Shown in pieces: positions 21,099 through 49,897 of a stretch of 64,000 bases of DNA. Within the stretch, counting starts at the first letter, position 1, and each line of letters starts with the position of its first letter. The notes below the pieces were generated by a model. It saw only the letters and a list, made by a program, of their open reading frames with translations. It searched no databases and was not told the origin of the DNA. The DNA is from Nitrosopumilus sp. (GTDB lineage: Archaea > Thermoproteota > Nitrososphaeria > Nitrososphaerales > Nitrosopumilaceae), in contig OZ252243.1 in NCBI GenBank assembly GCA_965249555.1, forward strand, positions 160,001 to 224,000, in the 5' to 3' direction. Position numbers and translations under genes: made by a program.

Positions 21099-21323
21099 CA
21101 TCATGATTATCAATCAGATAAGATCCAATCAAAATAAACCACATTGGGAAAAATGAAGCAACAAACAAAAATATTCTGGAACGAAAACTAATCATTTCAT
21201 CCATAGTAAGAACAATCTATGTTCTCTCATTCTTGTGTGTTTTATTGAAATGTCAAAATATTTTGTTTCTAATTGATTTGTATTTGACATCGTCTTTTTA
21301 ATCATCAAAGAACAACTAAACTC

Positions 21324-21414
21324 GTCAGGGTCGCATAGTTTGGTCTATTGCGTGAGATTGAAAATCTCTTGATCGACACCCTCGATTTCGTGGGTTCAAA
21401 TCCCACCCCTGACG
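21324..21414 (+). tRNA. Type II (long variable arm, G73) Ser-like tRNA with GAA anticodon; possibly a pseudo-tRNA
   Basis: Acceptor GTCAGGG/CCCTGAC+G, D-loop GG, anticodon arm TGAGA-TTGAAAA-TCTCT, variable stem GATCGA/TCGATT, T-arm GTGGG-TTCAAAT-CCCAC. Confidence 0.85.
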
Positions 21415-21443
21415 GGTTTATGATTTCTGTGATTGGTAATTCC

Positions 21444-26988: not shown

Positions 26989-27930
26989 TTGTCACAAGTA
27001 ATAATGAGTATTTTAATAACCAAAACTCGCAGTACACAATTATTTGAGGAATCAATAAAATCAAAATACACTGCAAAAAATTACAATTCACATCTAAAAC
27101 AATTCATTAAATTTGTAAAAGTAAATTCTGTTGATTCATTATTACTATATTCTACATCAGAATTACAACATGAATTAGAAAATTATTTAATACAACTAAA
27201 ACAAACAACAAATCCCAATTCCATACCATCAAAGTTTCAAGGAATCAAACATTTTTGTATCATGAATGAAATTCATATTAATTGGAACAAAATATGCAAG
27301 ATGTTTCCACAAAAACAAAAAACTCCAAATTTGAGATCATACACTACAAATGAAATTCGGAATATAATATATGCAGAAAAGAACATTAGAAACAAGGCAT
27401 TGATTCATTTTCTTGCATCAACAGGTGCAAGAGTAGGAGTTTTTGATCATAATTTATCAATCAAGCACATGAAGAAAATGCCTTGCAATATCTATGCAGT
27501 ATTACTTTATGCTGAAGATGTAGAAGAATATTGGTCATTTCTAACACCGCAGGCATCTAAAATTCTTAATAAATATCACCGTTTACGCAAACAAAAAGGA
27601 GAAATATTTTGCAACAACACTCCAATATTTGGAATTGATAAAACAACACAAAGACAGCTTGGATGGAATGGAGTTAGATCTGTAATGTATCGATCAATAT
27701 TCAAAAGTAATATTGTCAGACAGAAACAAAATTACCGTTATAATGTACAAGTTGATCATGGGTTTAGAAAAAGATTCAACACTATTCTAAAACTAGATAA
27801 TTCAATCAACTACAACATTGCAGAGAAGCTAATGGGGCACAAAAACGGTCTTGACGGCGTTTATTTTACTCCTACATTAAGCGAATTATTTACCGAATTT
27901 AAGAAGGTCATGTTCAAACTAGAGATTTAG
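26989..27930 (+). CDS. Tyrosine recombinase/integrase
   Basis: Catalytic R (STGAR), HGFRK, LMGH and downstream Y (GVYF) all present. Confidence 0.9.
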   Translation: MSQVIMSILITKTRSTQLFEESIKSKYTAKNYNSHLKQFIKFVKVNSVDSLLLYSTSELQHELENYLIQLKQTTNPNSIPSKFQGIKHFCIMNEIHINWNKICKMFPQKQKTPNLRSYTTNEIRNIIYAEKNIRNKALIHFLASTGARVGVFDHNLSIKHMKKMPCNIYAVLLYAEDVEEYWSFLTPQASKILNKYHRLRKQKGEIFCNNTPIFGIDKTTQRQLGWNGVRSVMYRSIFKSNIVRQKQNYRYNVQVDHGFRKRFNTILKLDNSINYNIAEKLMGHKNGLDGVYFTPTLSELFTEFKKVMFKLEI

Positions 27931-27990
27931 GTATAAATCATATTTTGTGAAACTTGAAACGATTTCACATAGTTCAGATTTTTATACTAA

Positions 27991-28221
27991 ATGTATCTAA
28001 CAAATCACATGAAGTTTAGAATATTCATCAAAAAAGATGAGGACGGGATGTTCGTATCAGAGGTTCCAGAACTTCCCGGATGCATATCTCAAGGAGACAC
28101 AAGAGAATTGGCAATAACTAACATCAAGGATGCCATTTCAGGATATATTACAAGTCTAAAAAAACATGATGAACCAATCCCTTTCTCCATTGATGAAGAG
28201 ACTGTAGAAATACATGTCTAA
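27991..28221 (+). CDS. hicB: HicB antitoxin
   Basis: VPELPGCISQGDTRELAITNIKDAI. Confidence 0.9.
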   Translation: MYLTNHMKFRIFIKKDEDGMFVSEVPELPGCISQGDTRELAITNIKDAISGYITSLKKHDEPIPFSIDEETVEIHV

Positions 28222-28438
28222 ACTGCCAATTATTTCTGCAAGAGAGTTACTCAAGATATTACACAAAATTGGATATGGTGTTGATCATCAGACAGGTAGT
28301 CATATAATATTAAGAAATAGAGATTATCCACATAGAAGAATAACTGTACCAAATCACAAAGAAATAGCAAGGGGGACATTACGCTCCATAATAAAACAAT
28401 CTGGATTAACTTTGGAAGAATTTTTGAAAATGAATTAA
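28214..28438 (+). CDS. hicA: HicA mRNA interferase toxin
   Basis: QTGSHIIL...ITVPNHKEIARGTLRSIIKQ. Confidence 0.9.
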   Translation: MSKLPIISARELLKILHKIGYGVDHQTGSHIILRNRDYPHRRITVPNHKEIARGTLRSIIKQSGLTLEEFLKMN

Positions 28439-28719
28439 GATTAAATTTTTCTGTATCTTGAATTTTTCTAGTGAGATATTTTTAAAAATATCAGACTGTT
28501 ATCTGTTGTATCTAATCACCATATGATATTCCATACCTTGCAATATAATACAATAATTCCATAATTTTGCAACAATTACATGGGATTGATTTGCCATGTT
28601 TTTGATGGTTTTGATTTTTGTTTTAACGGTTATCCAAACTGACTTAAATTAAAGTAAAAAATGAATAGTTTTAGTTGATTTTACAAAAATGACTTTAGAT
28701 TCTAAAAAATTAAAATTTG

Positions 28720-28949
28720 AGAAAAGACTAACTATGCAAGAGTTATCAGGTAGAGTACTTACACCTGACTAAAAGGAATGGCTTGTGTTAATCAAAGATA
28801 ATCTGATAAATTTAATATCTATTAATTTGGATGATCTTGATGAGGCTCTATTTTATCAGAAAGGTGATAGGATATAGTTCTATAAGTTATTTGGAGACGA
28901 GTATGAAAAGATTTTAGAGAAGCTACATGAGGTACTAATTAACTCTTGA
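28720..28949 (+). pseudogene. 3' remnant of a type I hsdR
   Basis: KEWLVLIK...FYKLFGDEYEKILEKLHEVLIN, homologous to ~37080..37308; stop overlaps the hsdS start. Confidence 0.85.
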
Positions 28950-30247
28950 ATGAATTAGTTTTTGATAAAAATAATTGCCCTAAAGGATGGGAATATTCTT
29001 CTTTAGGGTTTATCACAAAAAATCATGATGGTAAACGAATTCCTGTAAGTGCTAAATTAAGAGAAAATATGAAAGGAAAATATCCATATTATGGAGCTTC
29101 TGGAATTATCGATTATGTTAACAAATCCTTATTCAATGGAAATTATCTTTTGATTAGTGAAGATGGTGCTAATCTTTTAGCTAGATCATCTCCTATTGCA
29201 TTTATTGCCAAAAGAGAATTTTGGGTAAATAATCATGCTCATGTTTTAACTACTGTGTCTAATATTCAATTAGAATTTGTATCTTTTTTCATTAATAGTA
29301 TAAATATATCAAACTGGGTAACTGGAACAGCTCAACCGAAACTTAATCAAACAAATATGAATAAAATCCCAATTTCCCTTCCTCCAATTCCCGAACAAAA
29401 AAGAATCGTCTCAAAAATTGAATCAATCTTCACACAGATTGATTCAGCTAGAGAATCATTAAAAACGATAAAAAATAATCTGAAATTGCAAAAACAATCT
29501 GTATTAAAATCTGAATTTTATTTATCGGATAAAAAATTTGATTATAAAATCTTAAATGATATGTGCATTGATATCCAATCTGGTTTTGCCCAAGGCATTA
29601 AAAATGTTGAAAATGGAACGATTCATCTTAGAATGAATAATATAACTTCTAATTTTACAATGAATTTTCAATTGTTAAGAACTATTAACGCTAGTAAAGA
29701 CCAAAAAAACAAATACCTGATACAAAAAAATGATGTTATATTTGTTAATACAAATAGTGTTGAATTAATAGGAAAATCTTCTATTTTTTCATCTGATAAA
29801 ACATGTTTATTTAGTAATCATTTGACTCGTTTACGTACTGATCCTAAATTTTTGAAACCAAAATGGTTGTTATATTATCTTTATTTCAGATGGATACGAC
29901 ATGATTTCAGACTTATGTGTAGTAAACATGTTAATCAAGCATCTATTAATACTTCTAAGATAAAATTATTCCAAATACCTGTGATTTCTATATCTGAACA
30001 ACAATTGGTTATCTCAAAAATTGAATCAATCTTTGGTAGGATTGATGCAATTGACAAAAATGTTAATGATGCATTAGTATCCCTTGACAGACTAAAAAAC
30101 AGTGTACTAAAACAAGCCTTTGAAGGTAAGCTTGTATCACAGGATCCAAATGACGAACCAGCTGAGATTTTGCTTCAAAAAATACAACAAGAAAAGCAAT
30201 TAATACAAAATACAAAACCAAGAAAAGGAAAGAAAAATGTCAAATGA
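28946..30247 (+). CDS. hsdS: Type I R-M specificity subunit, complete copy coupled to hsdM
   Basis: Two TRDs, PPIPEQKRIVSKIE conserved helices, LKQAFEGKL tail. Confidence 0.95.
   Translation: MNELVFDKNNCPKGWEYSSLGFITKNHDGKRIPVSAKLRENMKGKYPYYGASGIIDYVNKSLFNGNYLLISEDGANLLARSSPIAFIAKREFWVNNHAHVLTTVSNIQLEFVSFFINSINISNWVTGTAQPKLNQTNMNKIPISLPPIPEQKRIVSKIESIFTQIDSARESLKTIKNNLKLQKQSVLKSEFYLSDKKFDYKILNDMCIDIQSGFAQGIKNVENGTIHLRMNNITSNFTMNFQLLRTINASKDQKNKYLIQKNDVIFVNTNSVELIGKSSIFSSDKTCLFSNHLTRLRTDPKFLKPKWLLYYLYFRWIRHDFRLMCSKHVNQASINTSKIKLFQIPVISISEQQLVISKIESIFGRIDAIDKNVNDALVSLDRLKNSVLKQAFEGKLVSQDPNDEPAEILLQKIQQEKQLIQNTKPRKGKKNVK
29419..29446 (+). repeat. Putative recombination site A1 (11-6-11 dyad)
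   Basis: TGAATCAATCT-TCACAC-AGATTGATTCA, perfect 11-bp inverted arms. Confidence 0.75.
30022..30049 (+). repeat. Putative recombination site B1
   Basis: TGAATCAATCT-TTGGTA-GGATTGATGCA. Confidence 0.7.
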
Positions 30248-31721
30248 AGCCCCAACAATTGTAGCAAAACTGTGGAATTTTTGTAACGTACTAAGAGATG
30301 ATGGAGTATCATATGGAGACTATGTTCAGCAATTGACTAATCTGCTATTCTTAAAAATGGCAGACGAGCAAACAAAGCCACCATTTAAGAAAAAATCAAT
30401 AATTCCTGCAAAATATGATTGGACTACTTTAACTGCAAAGAGTGGCAATGATTTGGAGAAACACTACAGACATGTTTTAGAGAATCTGTCTAGCGAAAAA
30501 GGATTGTTGGGAGTAATTTTCAGAAAATCCCAAAATAAAATCCAAGACCCTGCAAAATTAGAACGTTTAATCAAATTGATAGATGGTAATACAAAAGACA
30601 AGGACAAGATTCTTTGGACTGGAATGGACATCGATATCAAGGGAGAAATCTATGAAGGATTGCTTGAGAAAAATGCAGAAGATGTCAAAAGCGGTGCAGG
30701 TCAATACTTTACACCAAGAGCATTGATTTCTGCAATGGTTGATGTAATTGCGCCAAAACCAAAAGAGACAGTCGGAGATCCTGCATGTGGAACTGGTGGA
30801 TTTTTCTTGTCTGCTCATAAATACATTATCAAAAACTTTAACTTGGATCCTGATGAGAAAAATTTCTTAAAGAAAAAAACCTTCAAGGGTTGGGATATTG
30901 TAACTGAAGTGGTAAGATTGTGTGCAATGAGCATGTACCTGCACGGGATTGGGGATAAGGCAAGTCAGATTGTTGCAGGGGATTCATTAATCTCTGATCC
31001 TAGTGATAGGTTTGATATTGTAATGACGAATCCTCCATTTGGGAAAAAATCAAGCAACATTATATTTAATGAGGTAGGAAAGGCAGAACGTGAAACATTA
31101 TCTTATGAGAGAGATGACTTTTGGGCAACATCCTCAAACAAACAATTGAATTTTTTGCAACATGTAAAGACGATTCTTAAAATAAATGGTAGATGTGCTA
31201 TTGTAATTCCTGATAATGTTCTCTTTGAAGGAGGAGCAGGTGAGACCATAAGGAAAAAAATGCTAGAATATCTTAACTGTCACACATTGCTGCGATTACC
31301 AACTGGAATATTTTATGCAGGCGGGGTTAAAGCAAACGTATTGTTCTTTGATAAAAAGCCTGCAAGAACAGATGGCAAGGCATGGACTGAAAAACTGTGG
31401 ATTTATGATTTTAGAACGAACCAACACTTTACACTCAAAGAGAATCAACTATCAAGAAATAATTTAGATGACTTTGTAAAATGCTATAACACAAAAAATA
31501 TTCTAAAAAGAAAAGAAACTGAAGTATTTCATTCATATCAGTATGATGATTTGATAAAAAGAGACAAAGTATCACTGGATATCTTCTGGCTCAAAGATAA
31601 TTCTTTAGAAGACCTGGAGAATTTACCTCTGCCAAAAACATCTGCCAATGAGATTAAGGAAAACTTGAAATCTGCTTTGGAATCTATAAACAAATTAATT
31701 GTAGATCTTGATAAGAAATAA
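30237..31721 (+). CDS. hsdM: Type I R-M N6-adenine methyltransferase
   Basis: GQYFTPR, DPACGTGGF, NPPFG. Confidence 0.97.
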   Translation: MSNEAPTIVAKLWNFCNVLRDDGVSYGDYVQQLTNLLFLKMADEQTKPPFKKKSIIPAKYDWTTLTAKSGNDLEKHYRHVLENLSSEKGLLGVIFRKSQNKIQDPAKLERLIKLIDGNTKDKDKILWTGMDIDIKGEIYEGLLEKNAEDVKSGAGQYFTPRALISAMVDVIAPKPKETVGDPACGTGGFFLSAHKYIIKNFNLDPDEKNFLKKKTFKGWDIVTEVVRLCAMSMYLHGIGDKASQIVAGDSLISDPSDRFDIVMTNPPFGKKSSNIIFNEVGKAERETLSYERDDFWATSSNKQLNFLQHVKTILKINGRCAIVIPDNVLFEGGAGETIRKKMLEYLNCHTLLRLPTGIFYAGGVKANVLFFDKKPARTDGKAWTEKLWIYDFRTNQHFTLKENQLSRNNLDDFVKCYNTKNILKRKETEVFHSYQYDDLIKRDKVSLDIFWLKDNSLEDLENLPLPKTSANEIKENLKSALESINKLIVDLDKK

Positions 31722-32058
31722 TTTCCATCCATGGATGATTCTGCTAAATTATCAATACCTATAACAAATTAGGATTGTTTAGATCTCATAGCTAGACATA
31801 TGATTAAGATGTATGTGAGAACAAAAAAGAGAATTAACATAAAGAGAATGAAAACAATTACAAAAAAAGAGCATAAATTATCATTATAAAATTTACAAAA
31901 AATAAAAAACTTTGAGTTTTTATTCATTATCAAATTTTAGTATCTCTTCCAATGAATCAGATACAGTAAAAAATATTAGTCCACTATCCCATTCCCAATA
32001 AAATATATTCCTGTGACCGTCATCTTCATACGCATAAACTCGTCTTGTGTTTTTTTAA

Positions 32059-32955
32059 CTATGTTTGTCGAGGTAAATGCGTAGAGGTAGTAATAGATAC
32101 AATGAAACTCTCAAATATTTTTGTGTTATCGGGTCCTTGGTTCTTCAAATGTATTATTGAGCGAACATATAATTCCCATACCCAATACCATAATTCAGAA
32201 TGTAAATCAATTAATTCAACATTTAGTTTTAGGATTTCTTTGGCTTCTTTGTGATTTATTACCTTTCCGTGTGATTTGTATGTCTTTCCATCAGATAACC
32301 ACTTTGCAACATTCTCTGCTTGTTTCGGATTTTCTTTTAACATGTATTTTGAGAGCCAATTTTTTGCAAAACATTCTGCATCAGCTATTGCAGAAGTACA
32401 TATAGAAATTATTTCAGGTCGTACTTTTTGTAACATTGATAGATACATGTTTGGAGGATCACCTGCTTTTACGTTCTTTCTTACCATTTCCAATCCGTCA
32501 ATAAAAGAACGTGCAGGTATTAGAGGATCTCTCAGCAATGATATTTGTGGATCAATCGGACCTAATTCTGCAAGATATCCCATCATGATTTTATCCGATC
32601 CAAGGCACATCATTGTTGCTGCACTTTTTGCAAAATTTGGAACAATCACAGTAAAACTTTCAGTGAACCTTTCTCTGCACATAGAAAGTAGTTTTTCTGC
32701 AGCGTTACCACTACCTCCAGAAGAGTTTAAAATCAAAATTCCTTTCTTAGAATCTCCAGTAGAGCGCAATAGATCTTCAAATGGAATTACGTCGTCATTA
32801 TTAATAGCTGCATATGGATGTTCAGGATTTGCAAAATAACATATTACTTTACCGTTTAACTCGTCTTCAATTAATTTGATTAACTTTTTACGAGTTATGT
32901 GATCATTTTCATTTAAAATTGATGTAAAAATTGGATCTGTAATTATGTCTTTCAT
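32059..32955 (-). CDS. SDH-family Clp-fold serine protease
   Basis: LILNSSGG, VPNFAKSAATMMCLGSDKIMMG..AELGPIDPQ, SHGKVI. Confidence 0.9.
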   Translation of the reverse strand: MKDIITDPIFTSILNENDHITRKKLIKLIEDELNGKVICYFANPEHPYAAINNDDVIPFEDLLRSTGDSKKGILILNSSGGSGNAAEKLLSMCRERFTESFTVIVPNFAKSAATMMCLGSDKIMMGYLAELGPIDPQISLLRDPLIPARSFIDGLEMVRKNVKAGDPPNMYLSMLQKVRPEIISICTSAIADAECFAKNWLSKYMLKENPKQAENVAKWLSDGKTYKSHGKVINHKEAKEILKLNVELIDLHSELWYWVWELYVRSIIHLKNQGPDNTKIFESFIVSITTSTHLPRQT

Positions 32956-33101
32956 GTGTTCGAGATAAAATCACATCGGAGATGTATGGGTTTATCTCTT
33001 GTATCCAAGGCATCTAAAATTTGTTGAAGTTCGTCAAGATTATTAGTCTCCTTTTTCCCTTGTCTAATTGTATCTTTTACAAAAGTTTCTAATGACTGCA
33101 T
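32952..33101 (-). CDS. 49-aa protein translationally coupled to the SDH protease
   Basis: MQSLETFVKDTIRQGKKETNNLDELQQILDALD...; its TGA overlaps the protease ATG (ATGA). Confidence 0.55.
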   Translation of the reverse strand: MQSLETFVKDTIRQGKKETNNLDELQQILDALDTRDKPIHLRCDFISNT

Positions 33102-33325
33102 GTTATAGTTATGTTAAACACCTAAATAAATAAATTTCCCAGTCCAAAATTTTTATGTTAGATCTATTACTTAGGCTCTCCATCTTTCAAGATATATAAC
33201 TATATGTGAATACCAAAAGAAGGAATTCAGATAGCATAGGAAATGAACCCAGGTCCAGGAGTCGTAATCCATCGTCCTCAAAGAAAAAGCCAAAGAAACA
33301 GATTAGGGCAAAAAAAGACAAGTGC

Positions 33326-34321
33326 ATGTATGTTGGCATTGACTTGCACAAGGAATTTCTTCAAGTAGCAACAATGGATAATGACGGAAAGATATTACAA
33401 AACATAAAAGTTGAGAACACTCATGAATCAATCAGGAAACATTTTACAGACATACCAATTCATGCAAACATTGTCATGGAATCATCATCAGTCTGGTATA
33501 ACACGTATAGATTTCTTACAGATGAATTAGGATACAAAAACGTGACACTCTCAAACCCATATCTTACAAAGGCAATAGCTGCATCAAAAAAGAAGACAGA
33601 CAAGATTGATGCCAAGATACTGGCAGATCTTTTGCGTGGAGGATACATTGCAACATGCTATGTTCCAAACAAAAAGATAGTAAAACATCGCCAGCTGGTA
33701 AGATACAGAAAAAAACTCGTTCAGTGGAGGACCTCTCTCAAAAATTCTGTCCATGGAATTTTGTTACAGGAGGGAATCAAGATACCTGGAGTCACGTTCA
33801 CTGTAACATACAACAGAAGACTCGCCTCCCTAGGTGACTATCGCATAGACGGATTCGTACGACAGATAGGCCATATCAATCTGCAAATTGCAGAGATTAA
33901 TTCAAGAGTGTATGCTGCCGTAAAGACCAGTCCTGATGCCATGATAATAAAATCAATGCCCGGAATTGGCGATTACTCGGCACTAGTTATTGCAGCAGAA
34001 ATTGCAGGTATTAGCAGATTCAATGACTCTCACAAGTTATGCGCATATGCAGGAGTCGTGCCATCAGTTAGAAACTCTGCAGACACGATACACCATGGCA
34101 GCATAACCAAAAGGGGAAGCATGACACTACGATGGGTTCTCATCCAATGCGTCCATACCCATGCACTGCATGACAAGAACAGTGACATTACAAAATTTTA
34201 CAATCGCATTAAAAAGAAGAGAGGCTCATCAAAGGCCGCAGTTGCCGCATCATCAAAGATCCTGCGAGTGATTTACTGGATGCTAAAAGAGAGGAGAGAA
34301 TTTGTACAGAATTACAGTTAG
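33326..34321 (+). CDS. IS110-family DEDD recombinase/transposase
   Basis: YVGIDLHK, VMES, KTDKIDAKILA, PGIG, AYAGVVPSVRNSA; start placed at MYVGID. Confidence 0.95.
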   Translation: MYVGIDLHKEFLQVATMDNDGKILQNIKVENTHESIRKHFTDIPIHANIVMESSSVWYNTYRFLTDELGYKNVTLSNPYLTKAIAASKKKTDKIDAKILADLLRGGYIATCYVPNKKIVKHRQLVRYRKKLVQWRTSLKNSVHGILLQEGIKIPGVTFTVTYNRRLASLGDYRIDGFVRQIGHINLQIAEINSRVYAAVKTSPDAMIIKSMPGIGDYSALVIAAEIAGISRFNDSHKLCAYAGVVPSVRNSADTIHHGSITKRGSMTLRWVLIQCVHTHALHDKNSDITKFYNRIKKKRGSSKAAVAASSKILRVIYWMLKERREFVQNYS

Positions 34322-34490
34322 GACTGCAAGTCGCGTTTTATATGTTGAGGGAAAGCCTCGGTTAATAACTGCGGATAGGTCCTAATAAAGGGATGAAGAT
34401 AGCATTGAGGAAGAAGCCTCGTATGGATACATGTCCGTCATCTTTTGATTGAAAGCATTCCCTAGCGAAAGCTATGCCTTGGGATGCAAA
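34322..34490 (+). ncRNA. Putative bridge/seek RNA of the IS110 element
   Basis: Two GAGG-loop-CCTC hairpins flanked by segments matching target and donor junction; terminal GCATTCCC/GGGATGC stem with GAAA-loop hairpin; conserved in the second copy (~14745..14913, minus). Confidence 0.75.
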
Positions 34491-34563
34491 AAAGTAGGAA
34501 ATGTTTAAAAACAATTCACATGGATACATATAATCTGCAAATAAAATAATTATTTTGTAGAAT

Positions 34564-37308
34564 ATGAATCCCGAAGATAAAGCCCGTCAGAATATTGATA
34601 AAATGCTGATTGATTCAGGCTGGATTATTCAAGACTATGAGAATAGAAATCTCAGTGAAGGATTGGGGGTAGCAGTTAGAGAATACCCATTAAGTAAAGA
34701 TAATGCAGATTATGCCCTTTTCATTGATTCACAGCCAGTTGGGGTGGTTGAGGCAAAAAAATACGGACATACACTTAGCGGTGTAGTTGAGCAATCCGAA
34801 AAATATCTAGATGGATTATATGAAAAATTTGTCAGTACTCCCATAAGACCTCCATTTTCCTATGAAACGACTGGTATTGAGACTAAATTTGCAGACAGGC
34901 GTGATCCTGATCATCGTTCTCGTTATGTCTTTACATTTCATAGACCCGAATTACTACAAGAGTGGTTACAAGAAGACAAGACATTGCGTGCAAGACTAAA
35001 ACAGATTCCCGAATTAAATTTTGAAAAACTTTGGGACTGTCAGACTGAAGCAATCATAAATTTAGAGGACTCACTTTCACAAAACAAACCACGTGCATTA
35101 ATTCAGATGGCAACAGGTTCTGGCAAGACAATCACAGCAGTAACTTCAATTTATCGATTAATTAAATTTGCAAAAGCAAAAAAGATTCTATTTTTAGTTG
35201 ACAGGTCAAATTTGGGTAGACAAGCGTTACGTGAATTCCAACAGTATGAAACACCTGATGACGGTAGAAAATTTACTGACTTGTATAACGTACAACTATT
35301 ACAATCACACACAATTGATCCTGTTCCAAAAGTTGTAATCTCTACAATTCAAAGAATGTTTTCAATTCTAAAAAATAATAAAGATTATGAGGATGAAAAT
35401 GATGAATTTTCATCATTTGAAGATTCACAAGATGCGACTCCAGTTGAAGTACATTACAATGAAAATATACCAATTGGAGAATTTGATTTTATCATAATTG
35501 ATGAATGTCATCGTTCAATCTACAACAAATGGAAGCAGGTATTAGATTACTTTGATTCATTTTTAATTGGATTAACTGCAACCCCTTCAAATGATACTGT
35601 GGGATTTTTCAACAACAATCAGGTAATGAGATACACCCATGAAAGAGCTGTAGTTGATGATGTTAATGTTGGATATCACGTATACAGGATTAAAAACAAA
35701 ATTGGGGAGCAAGGAGGCACTATAGATGCAGGTCAATTTGTTGAAAAAAGAGACAGACTCACGCGGAAATCTGAGCAAGAGTATCTGAATGAAGATCTAA
35801 TTTATACACCAAGTGACCTTGATAGGTCAGTAGTAGCAAAAGATAGCATCAGACTAATTATTAGAACATTCAAGGAACGGTTATCTGAAATTTTTCCAAA
35901 CAGGACTAATGTTCCTAAAACCCTGATTTTTGCAAAAGACGACGCTCATGCAGAAGATATTACAGAAATTGTAAGAGAGGAATTTGGACTAGGAAATGAA
36001 TTTTGCAAAAAAATCACTTATCGTACAAAAGAAAAACCAGAGGAATTAATTACCTCGTTTAGAAATTCACCAATGCCCAGAATTGCAGTAACAGTTGACA
36101 TGATTGCAACTGGAACTGACATCAAACCATTAGAATGCATTATTTTTATGCGAGATGTCAAAACAAAGAATTACTTTGATCAAATGAAAGGAAGAGGGAC
36201 CCGAAAGATAGCAGATGATGATTTGATTGCAGTTACTCCTGATGCCAAAGCCAAAACTCATTTTGTCATAGTTGATGCGGTAGGCGTTTGTGAGCATACA
36301 ATGACTGACACTCACTCTTTATCTAAAAAACCAGGTGTTTCTTTCAAAGTATTGCTGGATAAAGCAACTGACAAAAATGCAGATGCAGACGATGTTGAGA
36401 GTTTGATTTACCGATTGTCCAGACTGAACGGAAAATTAAGTCAGGACGATAAAGATGAAATAAGCAATGCAAACAACGGAAAAACTCTGACAGATATTGA
36501 AAAAACATTGCTTGACGGAATTGACGCAGACAAGACACTAGAAAAAGCAAAAGAGCAGTGTCATACAGAAGAGCCAACAAATGAGCAGCTTAGAACTGTA
36601 TCAAAACAGATGATTGATGAAGCATGCAAGGTATTTGATTCGGCAAAACTACGAAAGACAATCCTTGACATCAAAAGCAAAAATGAGCAAATCATTGATG
36701 ATGTATCCATTGACGAATTGCTAGAAGCAGGATTTGTAGATAAAGTACAGAATATTGATAAAAAGACAGTTGATAACTGGATTGACTTTGTAGAGAAAAA
36801 TAAGGATCGAATTATAGCACTTGACATCATCTACTCCAAACCATATAGGATGAGAGAAATCACATTTGCAGATATTCAGAATCTGGCCAGTGCAATTGAG
36901 AAACCCCCGTATAATTTGACTCCTGAAATGCTTTGGAATGCATATCAGAGACTGGATAAATCAAAGGTGAAAAACAATCCCGCCAAAATGCTGACTGATT
37001 TGATATCTATTGTACGATATTCTGCAGGAAAAGAAGAATCATTATTGCCGTTTTCAGAAATAATTACAGAGAAATTTGAAAAATGGTTAACTGCCCAAGA
37101 ATCTTCTGGACGAAATTTTACATCAGAGCAAAAAGAATGGCTTGTAATGATTAAAAATACTATTGCAAGTTCTGTCTCAATTGGTATTGATGCACTAGAC
37201 GATGTGCCATTTAATCAGAAAGGTGGCAGAGTAAAGTTTTATGAAATATTTGGAGATGACTATGAAAAGATATTAGAGGATCTGCATGAGGCTCTGATTA
37301 ACCAATAA
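34564..37308 (+). CDS. hsdR: Type I R-M restriction subunit
   Basis: ADY...VVEAKK nuclease motif, MATGSGKT, DECH, QMKGRGTR. Confidence 0.97.
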   Translation: MNPEDKARQNIDKMLIDSGWIIQDYENRNLSEGLGVAVREYPLSKDNADYALFIDSQPVGVVEAKKYGHTLSGVVEQSEKYLDGLYEKFVSTPIRPPFSYETTGIETKFADRRDPDHRSRYVFTFHRPELLQEWLQEDKTLRARLKQIPELNFEKLWDCQTEAIINLEDSLSQNKPRALIQMATGSGKTITAVTSIYRLIKFAKAKKILFLVDRSNLGRQALREFQQYETPDDGRKFTDLYNVQLLQSHTIDPVPKVVISTIQRMFSILKNNKDYEDENDEFSSFEDSQDATPVEVHYNENIPIGEFDFIIIDECHRSIYNKWKQVLDYFDSFLIGLTATPSNDTVGFFNNNQVMRYTHERAVVDDVNVGYHVYRIKNKIGEQGGTIDAGQFVEKRDRLTRKSEQEYLNEDLIYTPSDLDRSVVAKDSIRLIIRTFKERLSEIFPNRTNVPKTLIFAKDDAHAEDITEIVREEFGLGNEFCKKITYRTKEKPEELITSFRNSPMPRIAVTVDMIATGTDIKPLECIIFMRDVKTKNYFDQMKGRGTRKIADDDLIAVTPDAKAKTHFVIVDAVGVCEHTMTDTHSLSKKPGVSFKVLLDKATDKNADADDVESLIYRLSRLNGKLSQDDKDEISNANNGKTLTDIEKTLLDGIDADKTLEKAKEQCHTEEPTNEQLRTVSKQMIDEACKVFDSAKLRKTILDIKSKNEQIIDDVSIDELLEAGFVDKVQNIDKKTVDNWIDFVEKNKDRIIALDIIYSKPYRMREITFADIQNLASAIEKPPYNLTPEMLWNAYQRLDKSKVKNNPAKMLTDLISIVRYSAGKEESLLPFSEIITEKFEKWLTAQESSGRNFTSEQKEWLVMIKNTIASSVSIGIDALDDVPFNQKGGRVKFYEIFGDDYEKILEDLHEALINQ

Positions 37309-37415
37309 ATGGATTTATTTTAGGAAAAAATAATGAATTACTCAAATTGCATAAAAACAACAGTTGATGTAAACGGTATTGTGACTGTTGATGATAACAA
37401 ATGACTTGCAATAAT

Positions 37416-38786
37416 CTAAAATGCACATAACAAAGAAAGTATTATAATTTTATGAGTTATTTTATGTATGGCAAATGTTGCATTTGCATCAATCCTACCA
37501 AAGATTGATTCAATTTTTGAGACGATTCTTTTTTGTTCGGGAAGAGGGGCTATGGGTAACTGGAATTTTTTTATATCGTATTGAAATAAATGTGGTATGG
37601 ACATTCCTTTTATTTTTTTTCTTACAATTTTTTGAAAAAAAGGTGATTTAAAATAATAAAATAAACATCTTGGAAAAATAGATTCAACCGGACGTACAAC
37701 TAGAATGGATGAGTTTACGGTAGTAGGTTGTGCTATATTATCTACATAACCAATTTTTCCTATTGTGCCGTCCTTTGTGATTAAGATATCTTTTTTATAA
37801 AGTTTAATTTCTGGAGATTCATCATACCTGAATTTGGAAAGATGATCCATTACGTTTTTGTAATTTATTGATCCATTTTCATTAATATCTTTAACAGCTA
37901 ACAATAAAGGACCTTCATCAGTATATTCATTTCGTTTTAATCCTCTCCAACCAATTCTAGCGTTAATGTTTATGTAATCACTTAATATTATTGTTATCCA
38001 TCCCTTTGGAAGATTATCTTTCTCGAAAACCAATTCTTTTGTAGAATCATTGTGGATCTTTTTCAAAAGAACTTCAGCTGGTTCATCATTAGGATCTTGC
38101 GATACTAGTTTTCCCTCAAAGACTTGCTTTAACACAGCTTGTCTAGATTGCTTCAACATTTTTCTGACATTTTCTAACTTTTTTCTACTTGCATCAATCT
38201 GTGTGAAGATTGATTCAATTTTTGAGACGATGCGTTTTTGTTCGGAAAGTGAAGGTAAAGGGATTTTTATTTTAGATAATTTATTAGCGTTAAAATTTGG
38301 TTGTGCAATCCCTATATTTCCTGAATGGATTTGTTGCCAATAAAGATCTGATTTAAAAAAATGGCTCACATAATTTGCATATGTGTTATTAGATAACACA
38401 ATTCTTACTAAATAAGATGCAAAAACTGCATTAGGGGGATTCTTGATTAGAAAACTTTTTCCTACAGTAGCACCAGTTCTTGCAAATACTAAATTATTTG
38501 CTTCTAATAGAAAAGCAGATATTTTCTTTGTAGGTATCTGACAATATGGAACCTTATCCCAGTTCACAGTATTATTTTGTATGTCTGTTATTCGTAAATA
38601 TTTAGGACCAATGTTTGCTTTCGTTGATTTTGCTGTATATCCATAATGAATTTTTATGGATAATTTATCAATAATTGTAATGATCCATCCTTTTGGAAGA
38701 TTATCTTTTTCAAAAACCAATTCTTTTGTGGAATCCTTGAGATATACATCTGGCAAGTTCTGGAACCTCTGATACAAACACCCCAT
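37416..38786 (-). CDS. hsdS: Second, inverted hsdS cassette (two different TRDs, conserved C-terminus missing, uncertain start)
   Basis: Two TRDs and conserved spacer; HsdS similarity stops right after SKIESIFGRIDA; 5' end fused to a hicB fragment. Confidence 0.9.
   Translation of the reverse strand: MGCLYQRFQNLPDVYLKDSTKELVFEKDNLPKGWIITIIDKLSIKIHYGYTAKSTKANIGPKYLRITDIQNNTVNWDKVPYCQIPTKKISAFLLEANNLVFARTGATVGKSFLIKNPPNAVFASYLVRIVLSNNTYANYVSHFFKSDLYWQQIHSGNIGIAQPNFNANKLSKIKIPLPSLSEQKRIVSKIESIFTQIDASRKKLENVRKMLKQSRQAVLKQVFEGKLVSQDPNDEPAEVLLKKIHNDSTKELVFEKDNLPKGWITIILSDYININARIGWRGLKRNEYTDEGPLLLAVKDINENGSINYKNVMDHLSKFRYDESPEIKLYKKDILITKDGTIGKIGYVDNIAQPTTVNSSILVVRPVESIFPRCLFYYFKSPFFQKIVRKKIKGMSIPHLFQYDIKKFQLPIAPLPEQKRIVSKIESIFGRIDANATFAIHKITHKIIILSLLCAF
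37485..37512 (-). repeat. Putative recombination site B2 (inverted partner of B1)
   Basis: Minus strand TGAATCAATCT-TTGGTA-GGATTGATGCA, identical to B1. Confidence 0.7.
38190..38217 (-). repeat. Putative recombination site A2 (inverted partner of A1)
   Basis: Minus strand TGAATCAATCT-TCACAC-AGATTGATGCA, 27/28 identical to A1. Confidence 0.75.
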
Positions 38787-38895
38787 CTTCGTCTTTTTTG
38801 ATGAATATTCTAAACTTCATATGATTTATTAAATTATTTAGTATAAAAATCTAAATTATGTGAAATCATGACAAGTTTTACAAAATATGATTTAG
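38710..38895 (-). pseudogene. hicB 5' fragment with its promoter region, inverted copy of ~27933..28110
   Basis: MKFRIFIKKDEDGVFVSEVPELARCISQG, then switches to hsdS sequence; upstream gatttttatactaaa conserved. Confidence 0.85.
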
Positions 38896-38917
38896 ACTCA
38901 AATTTCTAGTTTATAAT

Positions 38918-39886
38918 TTAATCAATGGGATGAGTACGTGCATAATTATTTAATCTGTATATGTTTTCCATTATTGGAGTTTTGTTATTTATTGGAAGTT
39001 GTGATACTAGAAAAATTTCTATAATTGACTTTAAATCATTAGTAAGATAGTTTAATTCTTTCCCACCCTTGATAAGATATTCTTTATTTACATCACTTCC
39101 ATGCACATTATAATTTCTAGTGTTTACTATTTTGTCCACAAAATTATCTTTGTCAATACATTCTCTGATTTGTTCTGGACAAAGATCTAAAAACCACTTT
39201 ATCTTGTTTCTAAATTCTTCATGCTTTGCTTCAGTTGCATCATAAAATCTTTGTATTACATGTGTGTGTTCTGTAAACATTGTATGTAGTGACATGTCAC
39301 TCTCAAATATATTGAAAAAATCATACATTATTTCATATGTTTTGAACCATATTTCATTCCATTTTTGGATTATCTTCTCAAAATTATCTTTTAAATCATG
39401 GAATCGTATTACTCCATCATCTGTTATTTTTGGATTCTCGAGTCTGTTGTTTCTATGATAACGTATCAATCAGTAAGGATAATACTTGAAATTTTTTGAG
39501 TTCGTTGTAGTTCCCTTAATGTATTTTGGAAAAACTGGTTTACCCATACATAGTCTTAAAAAATGATTGATTTTAGATGTCTCATCATCTAATTCCATTC
39601 CAGATTCTGGTTCAATTTGAAAAAATTCGAATTGTGTTGTTTTTTGCTCCAATAAACTAAAACTGGATTCCATGGTTTGTCCTATTTTTAATTTTGTAGA
39701 CTCACTTATGTTCACTGTTTCATTAATCTTATAGAATACTCCATATGTATCATCCTCCGGGGTTTTACTCATGAATGGTCCCCAAACAAATACATCTCTC
39801 AATCTGATAAATTTACAATTGTAATTTCTCATACTAATAAAAATTTGAATATAAATAATGAATCTGATTTTTGGTTGTTTGGACAT
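38918..39886 (-). pseudogene. ApeA-like HEPN-domain protein split by an in-frame TGA
   Basis: Two abutting same-frame ORFs (TGA at 39470-39472); C-terminal RNYNVH (RxxxxH) motif. Confidence 0.65.
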
Positions 39887-41302: not shown

Positions 41303-41449
41303 ATGACAAATCACATAAAGTTTAAAGTATTCATCAAAAAAGACGAGAACGGGATGTTTGTATCAGAGGTTCCAGAACTTTCTGGATGCATATCTCAAGG
41401 AGACACAAGAGAATTGGCAACAACTAACATCAAGGATATGTATCCATAA
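41303..41449 (+). pseudogene. Truncated hicB copy
   Basis: MTNHIKFKVFIKKDENGMFVSEVPELSGCISQGDTRELATTNIKD, then stop. Confidence 0.8.
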
Positions 41450-45008: not shown

Positions 45009-45289
45009 ACTAGATCATTATGGAATATTTTACAAAAATAACTGATGGATTACCAGATTACAATTTGCAAAAATTAAAACAGTACAATTGATCACTCCAA
45101 TGAGTTACAATTAGTCGTGTATGGTTTTCACTAGGTGGAATTTCAAATGATATCTTGCGCCATGAATAATGCATAGCTTACGCTACACATGATTAAAAAT
45201 GAAATCATCGTACAAGTCGTGTATATTTTCCACTTGATGAATTGAAAATAATCCATCGTGCATAGTCTCTATGTAAGTGGCTGAACCGA

Positions 45290-48275
<2,986 letters not shown>

Positions 48276-48426
48276 GCAAATTCAGCCACATATTACACGA
48301 CTATGCACGACGATCATTGCAAACCCCCTGGCAGGGGTCTGCTACATCCTTCATACAACACTTTCGTGATGTATTGCATCGATGATTTTGTGAAGATTAT
48401 GTACACCCGTACACTTTCCTTGTCTA

Positions 48427-49897
<1,471 letters not shown>

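What the first reader, a model, noticed from the sequence alone, without database searches (positions are those of the whole stretch)
26989..38895. Candidate archaeal hsdS shufflon: invertible type I R-M locus with two spacer-matched pairs of dif-like sites
Seen: hsdS1(+)-hsdM...hsdR is faced by an inverted hsdS2(-) with different TRDs. After each of the four TRDs sits a 28-bp dyad TGAATCAATCT-N6-RGATTGATKCA. The two first-TRD sites share spacer TCACAC (29419-29446 +, 38190-38217 -). The two second-TRD sites share TTGGTA (30022-30049 +, 37485-37512 -). Each pair lies within ~39 bp of exact identity, whereas the equally conserved FEGKLVSQDPNDEPAE segment is diverged at synonymous positions. hsdS2 loses HsdS similarity immediately after its B site. 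An intact tyrosine recombinase lies ~1 kb upstream of hsdS1. Known: Xer/dif-type tyrosine recombinase sites are 11-6-11 and need spacer identity; Mycoplasma pulmonis hsd and pneumococcal SpnIII loci vary specificity by hsdS inversion. Inference: A-A and B-B inversions (~8.8 and ~7.5 kb, flipping hsdM/hsdR) give four configurations joining different TRD pairs to the single C-terminus. I know of no characterised archaeal example.
Basis: partly seen in the sequence, partly recalled or inferred. Interest (0 to 1): 0.88.

Follow-up and report, generated by a model that had tools for sequence, protein, structure and literature searches.

The report
Invertible restriction-specificity locus in Nitrosopumilus
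An ammonia-oxidising archaeon carries a restriction-modification locus built to flip DNA segments and so change which sequences it marks and cuts, a trick well known in bacteria but not yet described in this archaeal group.

Summary
Four 28-bp dyads lie at the stated coordinates, with 0 expected by chance. They sit after the four TRDs of two inverted hsdS genes that flank hsdM and hsdR. A tyrosine recombinase gene lies 1 kb upstream.

The organism is an archaeon of a genus whose related records are titled Nitrosopumilus. The same nested four-site layout recurs in 10 further loci from 9 other species of the genus. In all 22 site pairs the 6-bp spacer is identical within the pair, although it differs between loci. 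In 11 of 11 loci only one hsdS head carries the conserved C-terminus. The core codons GAA-TCA-ATC are fixed at 46 of 46 peptide-ascertained sites, while neighbouring codons vary. Recombinase orthologues sit beside or inside such loci in 17 of 22 full-context cases. Between G163 and G166, the CR2-hsdM block is inverted with a breakpoint at site B.

The best reading is a recombinase-driven hsdS inverton with four possible specificities. It is a new member of a known kind: predicted invertons are already tabulated for Euryarchaeota (PMC7672463), and none for Thaumarchaeota.

The parts
26989..27930 (+). Rec: divergent Xer-like tyrosine recombinase, the candidate hsdS invertase
   Evidence: Pfam Phage_integrase E=3.9e-4, 20.7 bits, below the gathering score of 27.1. 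NCBIfam XerA_Arch E=1.7e-13, 50.7 bits, cut-off 220. R148, H257-x-x-R260, H284 and Y292 are invariant in 12 of 12 orthologues.
27991..28438 (+). hicB (27991-28221) and hicA (28214-28438) toxin-antitoxin pair, which travels with Rec in related loci
   Evidence: Pfam HicB_lk_antitox 42.4 bits and HicA_toxin 69.8 bits. Found beside Rec in G154, G172, G165, G164 and G036.
27916..28095 (.). Left arm of the outer inverted repeat: the Rec-hicB intergenic region with a TATA-like TTTTTATA, plus the hicB 5' end
   Evidence: Arms are 87-89% complementary to 38734-38912. The TATA reading comes from inspecting the sequence only.
28478..28624 (-). Remnant of an hsdM 5' end
   Evidence: blastn, 70.9% to the 5' end of G164 hsdM, minus orientation. 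The ORF translation resembles the HsdM N-terminus.
28713..28943 (+). Remnant of an hsdR 3' end, directly upstream of hsdS1
   Evidence: tblastn, 59.7% identity to HsdR residues 837-913. Its position matches the hsdR-hsdS junction of G172.
28946..30247 (+). hsdS1: TRD1a - site A - CR1a - TRD2a - site B - CR2. This is the complete, currently assembled specificity gene.
   Evidence: Pfam Methylase_S, 107 bits, 2 domains. It has a 65-aa CR2 tail and overlaps the hsdM start.
29419..29446 (+). Site A, spacer TCACAC
30022..30049 (+). Site B, spacer TTGGTA
30237..31721 (+). hsdM
   Evidence: Pfam N6_Mtase 228.5 bits and HsdM_N. Full length compared with orthologues of 80-87% identity.
32059..34321 (.). 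Insertion between hsdM and hsdR: an SDH-type ClpP-like protease (32059-32955, -) and an IS110 transposase (33206-34321, +). It is absent from the otherwise collinear G164 locus.
   Evidence: Pfam and NCBIfam. In G164 hsdM is followed directly by hsdR.
34564..37308 (+). hsdR
   Evidence: Pfam ResIII, EcoEI_R_C and Helicase_C. Full length compared with orthologues.
37416..38786 (-). hsdS2 head: TRD1b - site A' - CR1b - TRD2b - site B' - 22-aa unrelated tail. It has no CR2.
   Evidence: Pfam Methylase_S, 97.7 bits. Tail shown. Its first 17 codons overlap a truncated hicB copy in another frame.
37485..37512 (-). Site B', spacer TTGGTA. Homology to site B ends at the last base of the dyad.
   Evidence: One search gives the exact tract as -10..+28.
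38190..38217 (-). Site A', spacer TCACAC
38734..38912 (.). Right arm of the outer inverted repeat: a second copy of the hicB promoter-like region and its first ~30 codons, pointing into hsdS2
   Evidence: HicB, 90% over residues 6-35.

Best explanation
This is a phase-variable (invertible) type I restriction-modification locus, an hsdS 'epigenetic inverton' or shufflon, in a Nitrosopumilus-genus archaeon.

Two hsdS 'heads' face each other. Each encodes two different target-recognition domains (TRDs). Between them lies one segment carrying the only copy of the HsdS C-terminal conserved region (CR2), fused in frame, together with hsdM and hsdR.

Each head holds two 28-bp 11-6-11 sites with the same arms but different 6-bp spacers: class A after TRD1 and class B after TRD2. 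The neighbouring Xer-like tyrosine recombinase (26989-27930) is inferred to recombine A with A' and B with B', because only those pairs share a spacer.
- A B-B' inversion (~7.5 kb) moves CR2-hsdM-hsdR from head 1 to head 2.
- An A-A' inversion (~8.8 kb) additionally swaps the second TRDs.

Together these give four TRD combinations, and so four methylation and restriction specificities.

Shown here: the anatomy, its conservation across species, spacer identity within pairs, nucleotide-level constraint on the site, the recombinase association, and one evolutionary inversion footprint at site B.

Inferred: that the recombinase acts on these sites, that inversion is ongoing in this strain, and that head 2 is expressed after flipping, possibly from the duplicated hicB promoter-like region.
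For: 1. Sites are real and non-random. There are 4 sites where 0 are expected. The whole genome holds only one further match, in an hsdS pseudogene beside a recombinase fragment.

2. The layout recurs. The nested A,B(+)...B',A'(-) arrangement is found in 11 loci of 10 species, among 151 genus genomes scanned.

3. Spacers match only within pairs. In 22 of 22 pairs, spacer positions 12-17 are identical within the pair. Positions 13-17 are the most variable between loci. Positions 2-10 and 20-24 are invariant in 44 of 44 sites. A and B never share a spacer: class A starts TC and class B starts TT.

4. One C-terminus per locus. In 11 of 11 loci exactly one head has a 55-66-aa CR2 tail and the other has a 15-46-aa unrelated tail. 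In 5 of 11 loci B-B' identity stops at the last base of the dyad.

5. Nucleotide-level constraint. A codon-degenerate search for K-[IV]-E-S-I-F-x-x-I-D found 46 sites in 12 of 151 genomes. E-S-I is GAA-TCA-ATC in 46 of 46, although genome-wide usage is TCA 0.36 and ATC 0.18. The adjacent codons do vary: K is AAA 36 and AAG 10; I/V is ATT 32, ATC 11 and GTN 3; D is GAT 39 and GAC 7.

6. Within this locus, 9 of 16 codons of an identical peptide differ synonymously, but 0 of 33 nt differ at each site pair.

7. Recombinase association.
   - Among loci with Rec of at least 55% identity, 15 of 42 have a dyad within 10 kb. Among paralogues below 55%, 0 of 36 do.
   - Counting also a related dyad (TGCRTCAATCC-N6-GAGTTGAYGCA) in a second hsdS family, 17 of 22 loci with full 20-kb context are hsdS-dyad loci.
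   - In G172, G165, G014 and G009, Rec lies inside the B-B' segment.

8. Inversion footprint. G163 and G166 share hsdR at 91.9% identity in the same orientation. Their B-CR2-hsdM block is 95.2% identical but inverted. The breakpoint lies 38 bp from site B, and in G163 the block is joined to the second head at B'.

9. All parts are intact here: Rec, hsdS1, hsdM and hsdR are full length compared with orthologues.
Against:
- The protein database holds HsdS1 only as the exact self sequence, on 2 contigs. The next best hit is 61% identical over 44% of the query, so no recombinant forms were seen.
- The sites are related by descent, so the counts across loci are not independent.
- The recombinase family is multi-copy with many fragments. 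In 5 of 22 full-context orthologue loci no hsdS dyad was found, so it may have other roles.
- The Rec tree does not separate the two site types.
- The window locus carries an IS110 and protease insertion and remnants of older rearrangements.
- hsdS2 has no clean start: its ORF begins out of frame inside a truncated hicB. Expression after flipping is therefore unproven.
- One between-species difference that I first read as a B-B' flip (G009 against G172) is better explained by the whole cassette lying the other way round relative to hsdR and hsdM.
Confidence: 0.72

Rival explanations
1. Static relic. The two hsdS genes are old paralogues in a decaying, rearranged defence island. The dyad is inherited with the conserved KIESIFxxID codons, and nothing inverts today in this strain.
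For: - Remnants of a second hsdM, a second hsdR and two extra hicB copies, plus an IS110 insertion, show a history of illegitimate rearrangement.
- hsdS2 lacks a clean start codon context.
- Solitary hsdS genes in G158 and G166 keep recognisable sites.
- No recombinant protein forms are in the database.
Against: - Spacers are identical within pairs in 22 of 22 cases despite between-locus variation and TRDs less than 33% identical.
- Core codons are fixed at 46 of 46 sites while flanking codons drift.
- In solitary G166 both sites carry 2 mismatches to the pattern.
- Rec and all R-M genes are intact.
Confidence: 0.13
2. The repeats do recombine, but through general homologous recombination or gene conversion between short inverted repeats. 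The neighbouring recombinase is the integrase of a mobile island that carries the R-M system.
For: - Thaumarchaeal integrated elements commonly carry XerC/D-like integrases and type I S, M and R genes (PMC6563490, Table 1 passage).
- The Rec family is multi-copy with many pseudogenes.
- In some loci the identical tracts extend to 100-211 bp, as gene conversion would give.
- The pneumococcal spnIII locus is reported to recombine independently of all known site-specific recombinases (PMC6620402, title and abstract in the listing).
Against: - In the window the identity tracts are only 39 bp.
- In 3 loci B-B' identity is 16-22 bp and still covers the spacer, which is short for homologous recombination.
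- Identity is strict in the 6-bp spacer but relaxed at positions 18, 19, 25 and 28, the pattern expected of a tyrosine-recombinase crossover region.
- Rec sits inside the invertible segment, 100-650 bp from B', in four loci, and between inverted hsdS genes of a second family in five more.
- Rec paralogues below 55% identity are never next to such sites (0 of 36).
Confidence: 0.1
3. The sites serve mainly to exchange whole cassettes (TRDs or entire R-M modules) between genomes rather than to switch reversibly within a clone.
For: - The B..B' segment of G153 and G154 is 99.3% identical over 4.3 kb, while the flanks are 70-76% identical. The block starts 26 bp from a B site.
- G151 contig C3 shares flanks at 92-99% with the G151 C1 locus but holds a different R-M family between its sites.
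- One TRD is 98.8% identical between G153 position 2 and G154 position 1.
Against: Exchange and inversion are not exclusive. Inverted sites with a resident recombinase will invert whenever they can exchange. The G163/G166 difference is an inversion, not a replacement.
Confidence: 0.05

Closest known systems
Mycoplasma pulmonis hsd loci (HvsR-dependent hsdS inversions)
   Same: Two full hsdS genes in inverted orientation undergo tyrosine-recombinase inversions that produce chimeric HsdS proteins with new specificities (PMC4948785, Introduction passage). From recall of Dybvig et al. 1998, which is not held: the two hsdS genes flank hsdM and hsdR, so these genes flip too, and two classes of site (vip, hrs) are used.
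   Different: - The organism here is an archaeon.
- The recombinase is encoded at the locus and belongs to a family found only in Nitrosopumilaceae-type records. Homology to HvsR was not tested.
- The sites lie after each TRD, inside the ESIFxxID codons.
- Only one C-terminal conserved region exists per locus (11 of 11).
Pneumococcal SpnIII / cod locus (PsrA/CreX) and the 'epigenetic invertons' surveyed by Huang et al. 2020
   Same: A type I R-M system with multiple hsdS genes, inverted repeats inside the hsdS coding sequence, and a locus-encoded tyrosine invertase (PMC7672463, passages and section 14). The related Nitrosopumilus loci with Rec between inverted hsdS genes (L048, L068, L078) have the same gene order as SpnIII.
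   Different: - In the window, hsdM and hsdR lie inside the invertible segment, and the two heads are complete two-TRD units rather than silent half-genes.
- The repeats are 28-bp dyads with pair-specific spacers rather than longer repeats. The repeat lengths in SpnIII are recalled, not checked.
- The survey tables list 4 and 11 loci for Euryarchaeota and none for Thaumarchaeota.
Xer/dif and Cre/loxP-type 11-6-11 (13-8-13) tyrosine-recombinase sites with heterospecific spacers
   Same: Two inverted arms surround a short asymmetric spacer whose identity decides which sites can pair. Here the arms are invariant and spacers match in 22 of 22 pairs. That spacer homology is required is established knowledge, recalled.
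   Different: - These are not dimer-resolution sites: four copies lie inside coding sequence.
- The recombinase is not an XerA equivalog (50.7 bits against 220).
- No XerA above the cut-off was found in this genome.
Haloarchaeal virus phiCh1 int1 inversion system
   Same: This is the only archaeal phase-variation-by-inversion system cited in the review of archaeal tyrosine recombinases that I searched (PMC8371274, reference-list passage).
   Different: It is viral, and according to the cited title it varies proteins with cell-surface adhesion specificity rather than R-M specificity. No sequence comparison was made.

Membership tests
hsdS epigenetic inverton / phase-variable type I R-M (definition in PMC7672463) | Type I R-M locus with hsdR, hsdM and at least two hsdS genes | tested here: met
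   Pfam hits for all genes. hsdS1 is on the + strand and hsdS2 on the - strand.
hsdS epigenetic inverton / phase-variable type I R-M (definition in PMC7672463) | Inverted repeats inside the hsdS coding regions, flanking the invertible sequence | tested here: met
   Two nested pairs, each a 39-bp exact tract.
hsdS epigenetic inverton / phase-variable type I R-M (definition in PMC7672463) | Invertase gene at the locus | tested here: met
   An intact tyrosine recombinase lies 1 kb upstream. Orthologues are associated with hsdS dyads in 17 of 22 full-context loci.
hsdS epigenetic inverton / phase-variable type I R-M (definition in PMC7672463) | Both orientations present in one population, with several methylation motifs | not testable with these tools
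No methylome data are available. There is only a between-species footprint, G163 against G166.
Tyrosine recombinase superfamily | Catalytic R...H-x-x-R...H/W...Y residues and a two-domain Xer-like fold | tested here: met
   R148, H257/R260, H284 and Y292 are invariant in 12 of 12 orthologues. The NCBIfam XerA, XerC and XerD alignments span residues 18-286. The Pfam score is below the gathering threshold. The fold was not confirmed: the AF2 model has pLDDT 48.6, and no PDB sequence hit was found.
XerA (archaeal chromosome-dimer resolvase) acting at dif | Scores as a XerA equivalog, with a single dif site per chromosome | tested here: not met
   50.7 bits against a cut-off of 220. There are four sites inside genes, and the recombinase family is multi-copy.
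R64-type shufflon (Rci/sfx) | Several invertible segments separated by many repeats, giving alternative C-termini to one constant N-terminal gene part | tested here: not met
   Here one constant 3' part toggles between two variable 5' heads through two site pairs. The R64 features are recalled. PMC8371274 reports no direct relationship between archaeal tyrosine recombinases and Rci.

The most novel reading that the evidence does not exclude
The 28-bp sites are a genus-wide addressing system and not only an inversion switch. Arms common to all sites recruit one lineage-specific recombinase, and the 6-bp spacers (class A TC...., class B TT....) define orthogonal docking points. Through these points TRDs and whole R-M modules, of at least two unrelated type I families, would be inverted within a cell and also swapped between strains and species, as a natural recombinase-mediated cassette exchange. 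This would give ammonia-oxidising archaea a phase-variable methylome and a shared pool of specificity cassettes.
Probability: 0.25. Interest if true: 0.8.

Novelty: new member of a known kind. Interest (0 to 1): 0.62.

Why it matters
Phase-variable type I systems are a major source of clonal heterogeneity in bacteria. They affect both phage defence and epigenetic gene regulation. In the papers I searched, no such system has been experimentally characterised in any archaeon.

The 2020 survey that tabulates predicted invertons lists 4 and 11 loci for Euryarchaeota and none for Thaumarchaeota (PMC7672463). The 2023 survey of archaeal R-M systems contains no word beginning 'inver' (PMC10609329).

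Nitrosopumilus-type ammonia oxidisers are among the most abundant archaea in the ocean; that statement is recalled. A conserved, recombinase-linked hsdS switch in at least 10 species gives a concrete, testable case of programmed inversion and possible methylome switching in this group. It also offers a compact site (28 bp, spacer-addressed) with a cognate recombinase that could serve as a genetic tool for organisms that have few.

Tried and rejected
This was the decisive test.

3. Recombinant HsdS forms in the 5.8-billion-protein collection. The search with HsdS1 returned only the exact self sequence (1 member, 2 contigs). The next hit is 61% identical over 44% of the query. I ran no further search on HsdS2.

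4. Recombinase structure. The AF2 model built from 12 sequences had mean pLDDT 48.6, so no fold search was run. A profile search of PDB sequences gave 0 hits at E <= 0.01.

5. G009 against G172 as a B-B' flip. I rejected this reading. TRD homology follows the Rec-linked head, so the whole cassette lies the other way round relative to hsdR and hsdM.

6. Co-variation of Rec clades with the two site types. None was found: the labels are intermixed, and all groups together are as low in 73 of 200 shuffles.
   - The tree used 33 rows: the window plus 32 of 78 loci.
   - Rows were dropped if Rec identity was below 55%, the aligned length was below 270 aa, there was an internal stop, or the match was in minus orientation.

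7. Solitary-gene by-product idea. Only G158 and G166 have same-strand-only sites without a partner head in the stretch fetched. G036 has one head beside Rec.

8. The bacterial sigma-70 promoter scanner was not used, because the organism is an archaeon. The TATA-like element upstream of hicB is read from the sequence only.

9. Literature. Five searches and passages of seven papers found no thaumarchaeal hsdS inverton.
   - Supplementary files were not opened, since the session instructions say they are closed.
   - Tables S5 and S12 of PMC7672463, Data Set S3 of PMC7394358 and Data S2 of PMC10028968 may list archaeal loci that I could not see.
   - PMC24968 (Dybvig 1998) is not held, so its details are recalled.

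Full report
**1. What is in the window**

The region holds, from left to right:
- a tyrosine-recombinase-like gene, Rec, at 26989-27930 (+);
- a hicB/hicA pair at 27991-28438 (+);
- about 500 bp containing a remnant of an hsdM 5' end on the minus strand (28478-28624) and a remnant of an hsdR 3' end (28713-28943);
- hsdS1 at 28946-30247 (+), overlapping hsdM at 30237-31721 (+);
- an SDH-type ClpP-like protease gene at 32059-32955 (-) and an IS110 transposase at 33206-34321 (+);
- hsdR at 34564-37308 (+);
- hsdS2 on the opposite strand at 37416-38786 (-).

These assignments rest.

A TBP gene and archaeal 16S and 23S rRNA genes at 45282-49897 show that the organism is an archaeon. Its genome is one contig of 2,230,439 bp with 34.4% G+C. 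Related loci come from records titled Nitrosopumilus, Nitrosopumilaceae or Thaumarchaeota.

**2. The observation**

The pattern TGAATCAATCT-N6-RGATTGATKCA occurs at exactly the four stated places, with none expected in shuffles. In the whole genome it recurs only once more, at up to 2 mismatches per arm. That fifth copy lies in an hsdS pseudogene fragment next to a fragment of a Rec paralogue. A second type I system elsewhere in the genome has no match to the dyad.

Each site follows one TRD and encodes ...K-I-E-S-I-F-x-x-I-D.... The two sites after the first TRDs share spacer TCACAC. The two after the second TRDs share TTGGTA. Each pair lies in a 39-bp exact tract.

The 16-residue peptide FEGKLVSQDPNDEPAE, present in both genes, differs at 9 of 48 nt, all at third positions. 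The 33 nt around each site pair differ at 0 positions. After site B' the hsdS2 frame runs into 22 unrelated residues.

**3. Geometry**

hsdS1 reads TRD1a-A-CR1a-TRD2a-B-CR2 and continues into hsdM. hsdS2 reads TRD1b-A'-CR1b-TRD2b-B'-tail.
- A crossover between B and B' inverts CR2-hsdM-(protease, IS110)-hsdR. This joins CR2 and hsdM to head 2 and leaves head 1 with the tail.
- A crossover between A and A' also carries the two second TRDs across.

The four TRDs are 24-32% identical to each other, so four specificities are possible.

An outer inverted repeat (27916-28095 against 38734-38912, 87-89% complementary) places a second copy of the region upstream of hicB in front of head 2. That copy includes a TATA-like TTTTTATA about 30 nt before the ATG and the first ~30 hicB codons. 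It could supply transcription after a flip. This is inference from sequence only. The hsdS2 ORF starts out of frame inside the truncated hicB, so how it is translated is open.

**4. Is it more than inherited codons?**

I scanned all 151 species genomes of the genus.

By DNA pattern, 17 of 151 genomes have a match. Ten further loci, in nine other species (G151 has two), show the same nested order A, B on one strand and B', A' on the other. The loci are G153, G154, G172, G165, G164, G163, G151 (two), G014 and G009.

In the 22 site pairs of the 11 loci:
- spacer positions 12-17 never differ within a pair;
- positions 13-17 are the most variable positions between loci;
- positions 2-10 and 20-24 are invariant in 44 of 44 sites;
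- within-pair mismatches occur only at positions 1, 11, 18, 19, 25, 26 and 28.

Class A spacers are TCACAC, TCTCAC, TCTCCC or TCGCAC. Class B spacers are TTGGTA, TTGATA, TTGGCA, TTGCCG or TTGACA. A and B never share a spacer. This is the pattern expected if spacer identity is what permits recombination, and if A and B are kept orthogonal so that A-by-B events, which would delete or scramble a TRD, cannot happen.

To avoid ascertainment by the DNA pattern, I also searched a codon-degenerate pattern for K-[IV]-E-S-I-F-x-x-I-D. It found 46 sites in 12 of 151 genomes. E-S-I is GAA-TCA-ATC in 46 of 46, and the second Ile is ATT in 45 of 46. The flanking codons vary: AAA 36 and AAG 10; ATT 32, ATC 11 and GTN 3; GAT 39 and GAC 7. 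Genome-wide, TCA is 36% of Ser codons and ATC is 18% of Ile codons. The sites share ancestry, so these counts are not independent. Even so, synonymous drift has reached the neighbouring codons and not the dyad core.

**5. One C-terminus per locus**

In 11 of 11 loci one head ends in a 55-66-residue CR2 containing the conserved stretch FEGKLV.QDP (one variant has N for K) and the other ends in 15-46 unrelated residues. B-B' identity ends at the last base of the dyad in 5 of 11 loci and 7 bases later in 3 of 11. The 28-bp site is thus the unit retained at the 'tail' end of the segment.

**6. The recombinase**

Rec scores weakly but consistently as Xer-like. NCBIfam gives XerA_Arch at E=1.7e-13 (50.7 bits, cut-off 220), with XerC and XerD weaker. 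Pfam Phage_integrase gives 20.7 bits, below the gathering score. R148, H257-x-x-R260, H284 and Y292 are invariant in 12 orthologues. Rec is not an XerA equivalog, and no XerA above the cut-off is present in the genome.

The family is multi-copy with many fragments. It was found only in thaumarchaeal-type records, apart from two MAG contigs binned as bacteria.

Association with the sites:
- Of 42 loci with Rec of at least 55% identity, 15 have a dyad within 10 kb. Of 36 loci with more distant paralogues, 0 do.
- Further orthologue loci (L048, L049, L062, L068, L078) lie between inverted hsdS genes of a second family. Their nested repeat pairs carry a related dyad, TGCRTCAATCC-N6-GAGTTGAYGCA (peptide IASILSGVDA), again with spacers matched within pairs.
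- Counting both site types, 17 of 22 orthologue loci with full 20-kb context are hsdS-dyad loci and 5 are not (using loose patterns).
- In G172, G165, G014 and G009, Rec lies inside the B-B' segment, 100-650 bp from B' and co-directional with the tail-bearing head.

The Rec tree does not separate the two site types. The window's Rec falls in a well-supported group of five (99/96) with G165, G172, G009 and G014.

**7. Evidence that segments have actually inverted**

G166 has a plain operon, hsdR-hsdS-hsdM, with no second head in the 14 kb fetched. G163 shares its hsdR at 91.9% identity in the same orientation. However, the block from 38 bp before site B through CR2 and hsdM is 95.2% identical and inverted, and in G163 it is attached at B' to a second head. 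That is the product expected of a B-B' inversion.

The G009 arrangement, which I first took for another flip, is better described as the whole cassette lying the other way round relative to hsdR and hsdM.

The locus is also a hot spot for replacement:
- The B..B' segment of G153 and G154 is 99.3% identical over 4.3 kb while the flanks are 70-76% identical.
- A 10.6-kb extra contig of G151 shares flanks (92-99%) with the chromosomal locus but holds a different R-M family.
- The same TRD (98.8% identical) sits at position 2 in G153 and at position 1 in G154.

**8. What is not shown**

The protein collection holds HsdS1 only in its present form. Rec activity on the sites, expression of head 2, and any methylation phenotype are all inferred.

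**9. Comparison with what is known**

Functionally this is an hsdS inverton of the kind characterised in Mycoplasma pulmonis, Streptococcus pneumoniae and others (PMC7672463 and PMC4948785, passages read).

The closest layout is M. pulmonis, with two inverted hsdS genes. That hsdM and hsdR lie between them, and that two site classes are used, is recalled, because the source paper is not held.

The tables of the 2020 survey list 4 (REBASE) and 11 (NCBI) invertase-positive loci in Euryarchaeota and none in Thaumarchaeota. Other papers say in general terms that such systems exist in archaea. In the survey of archaeal R-M systems no word beginning 'inver' occurs. In the review of archaeal tyrosine recombinases, 'invertase' and 'restriction' do not occur, and its phase-variation passages cite only the phiCh1 virus as an archaeal case. 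I could not see the supplements.

**10. Verdict**

I file this as a new member of a known kind: a conserved, lineage-specific family of invertible type I specificity loci in Nitrosopumilus-type archaea, with its own Xer-like recombinase and spacer-addressed 28-bp sites. Confidence that it works as an invertible switch is about 0.7. Interest is 0.62.

Noticed in passing
window 32059-34321: An SDH-type ClpP-like serine protease gene (-) and an IS110-family transposase (+) sit between hsdM and hsdR. The otherwise collinear G164 locus has hsdM followed directly by hsdR. This may separate hsdR transcriptionally from hsdS-hsdM.
   Followed up: partly
window 41306-41437 (+), 38734-38834 (-), 28000-28131 (+): There are three copies of the hicB 5' region, of which only the first belongs to a complete gene. 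The third is 93% identical to the first. Together with the second it brackets the HEPN/ApeA genes at 38918-39886 as an inverted repeat.
   Followed up: partly
window 38918-39886 (-): An ApeA-like N-terminal domain ORF and an Apea-like HEPN ORF are adjacent, possibly one gene split in two. A 72-79% identical pair lies next to a Rec orthologue in L059.
   Followed up: no
window 28478-28943: Remnants of a second hsdM (5' end, minus strand) and a second hsdR (3' end, directly before hsdS1). The hsdR-hsdS junction matches that of G172, G165 and G163. This suggests the window's layout derives from an ancestor with hsdR upstream of head 1.
   Followed up: partly
L048, L049, L062, L068, L078 (Rec-orthologue loci): A second hsdS family has Rec placed between inverted hsdS genes. 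Its nested repeat pairs carry a related dyad, TGCRTCAATCC-N6-GAGTTGAYGCA, with spacers matched within pairs. The same motif also occurs outside the heads in L028 and L029.
   Followed up: partly
L028 7071-11392 against L029 11340-7019: The segment between the B sites, holding an hsdM/hsdR of a different type I family, is 99.3% identical between two species whose flanks are 70-76% identical. This looks like recent transfer of the whole module.
   Followed up: partly
L035 (G151 contig C3, 10,621 bp) against G151:C1:69613-81486: A short extra contig shares both flanks (92-99%) with the chromosomal four-site locus. It carries a different R-M family, and its two second TRDs are identical. It is probably a co-assembled strain variant of the same locus.
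   Followed up: partly
G000:C1:505226-506662 (outside the window): A decayed copy of the pairing: a fragment of a Rec paralogue next to an hsdS fragment with stop codons. The hsdS fragment keeps a dyad with spacer TTGACA.
   Followed up: no
genus scan: 16 of the 17 genomes with the dyad are 1.9 Mb or larger, and most are near-complete assemblies in few contigs. Only one genome below 1.9 Mb (G081, 1.5 Mb) has the dyad, and the many 1.2-1.8-Mb genomes otherwise have none. This may reflect a sub-lineage with larger genomes, or assemblies that break at such repeats.
   Followed up: no
window 21323-21415: tRNA-Phe(GAA) spans 93 nt by ARAGORN, longer than a plain tRNA, so it may contain an intron. 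It lies 5.6 kb upstream of Rec. No attachment-site repeat was looked for.
   Followed up: no
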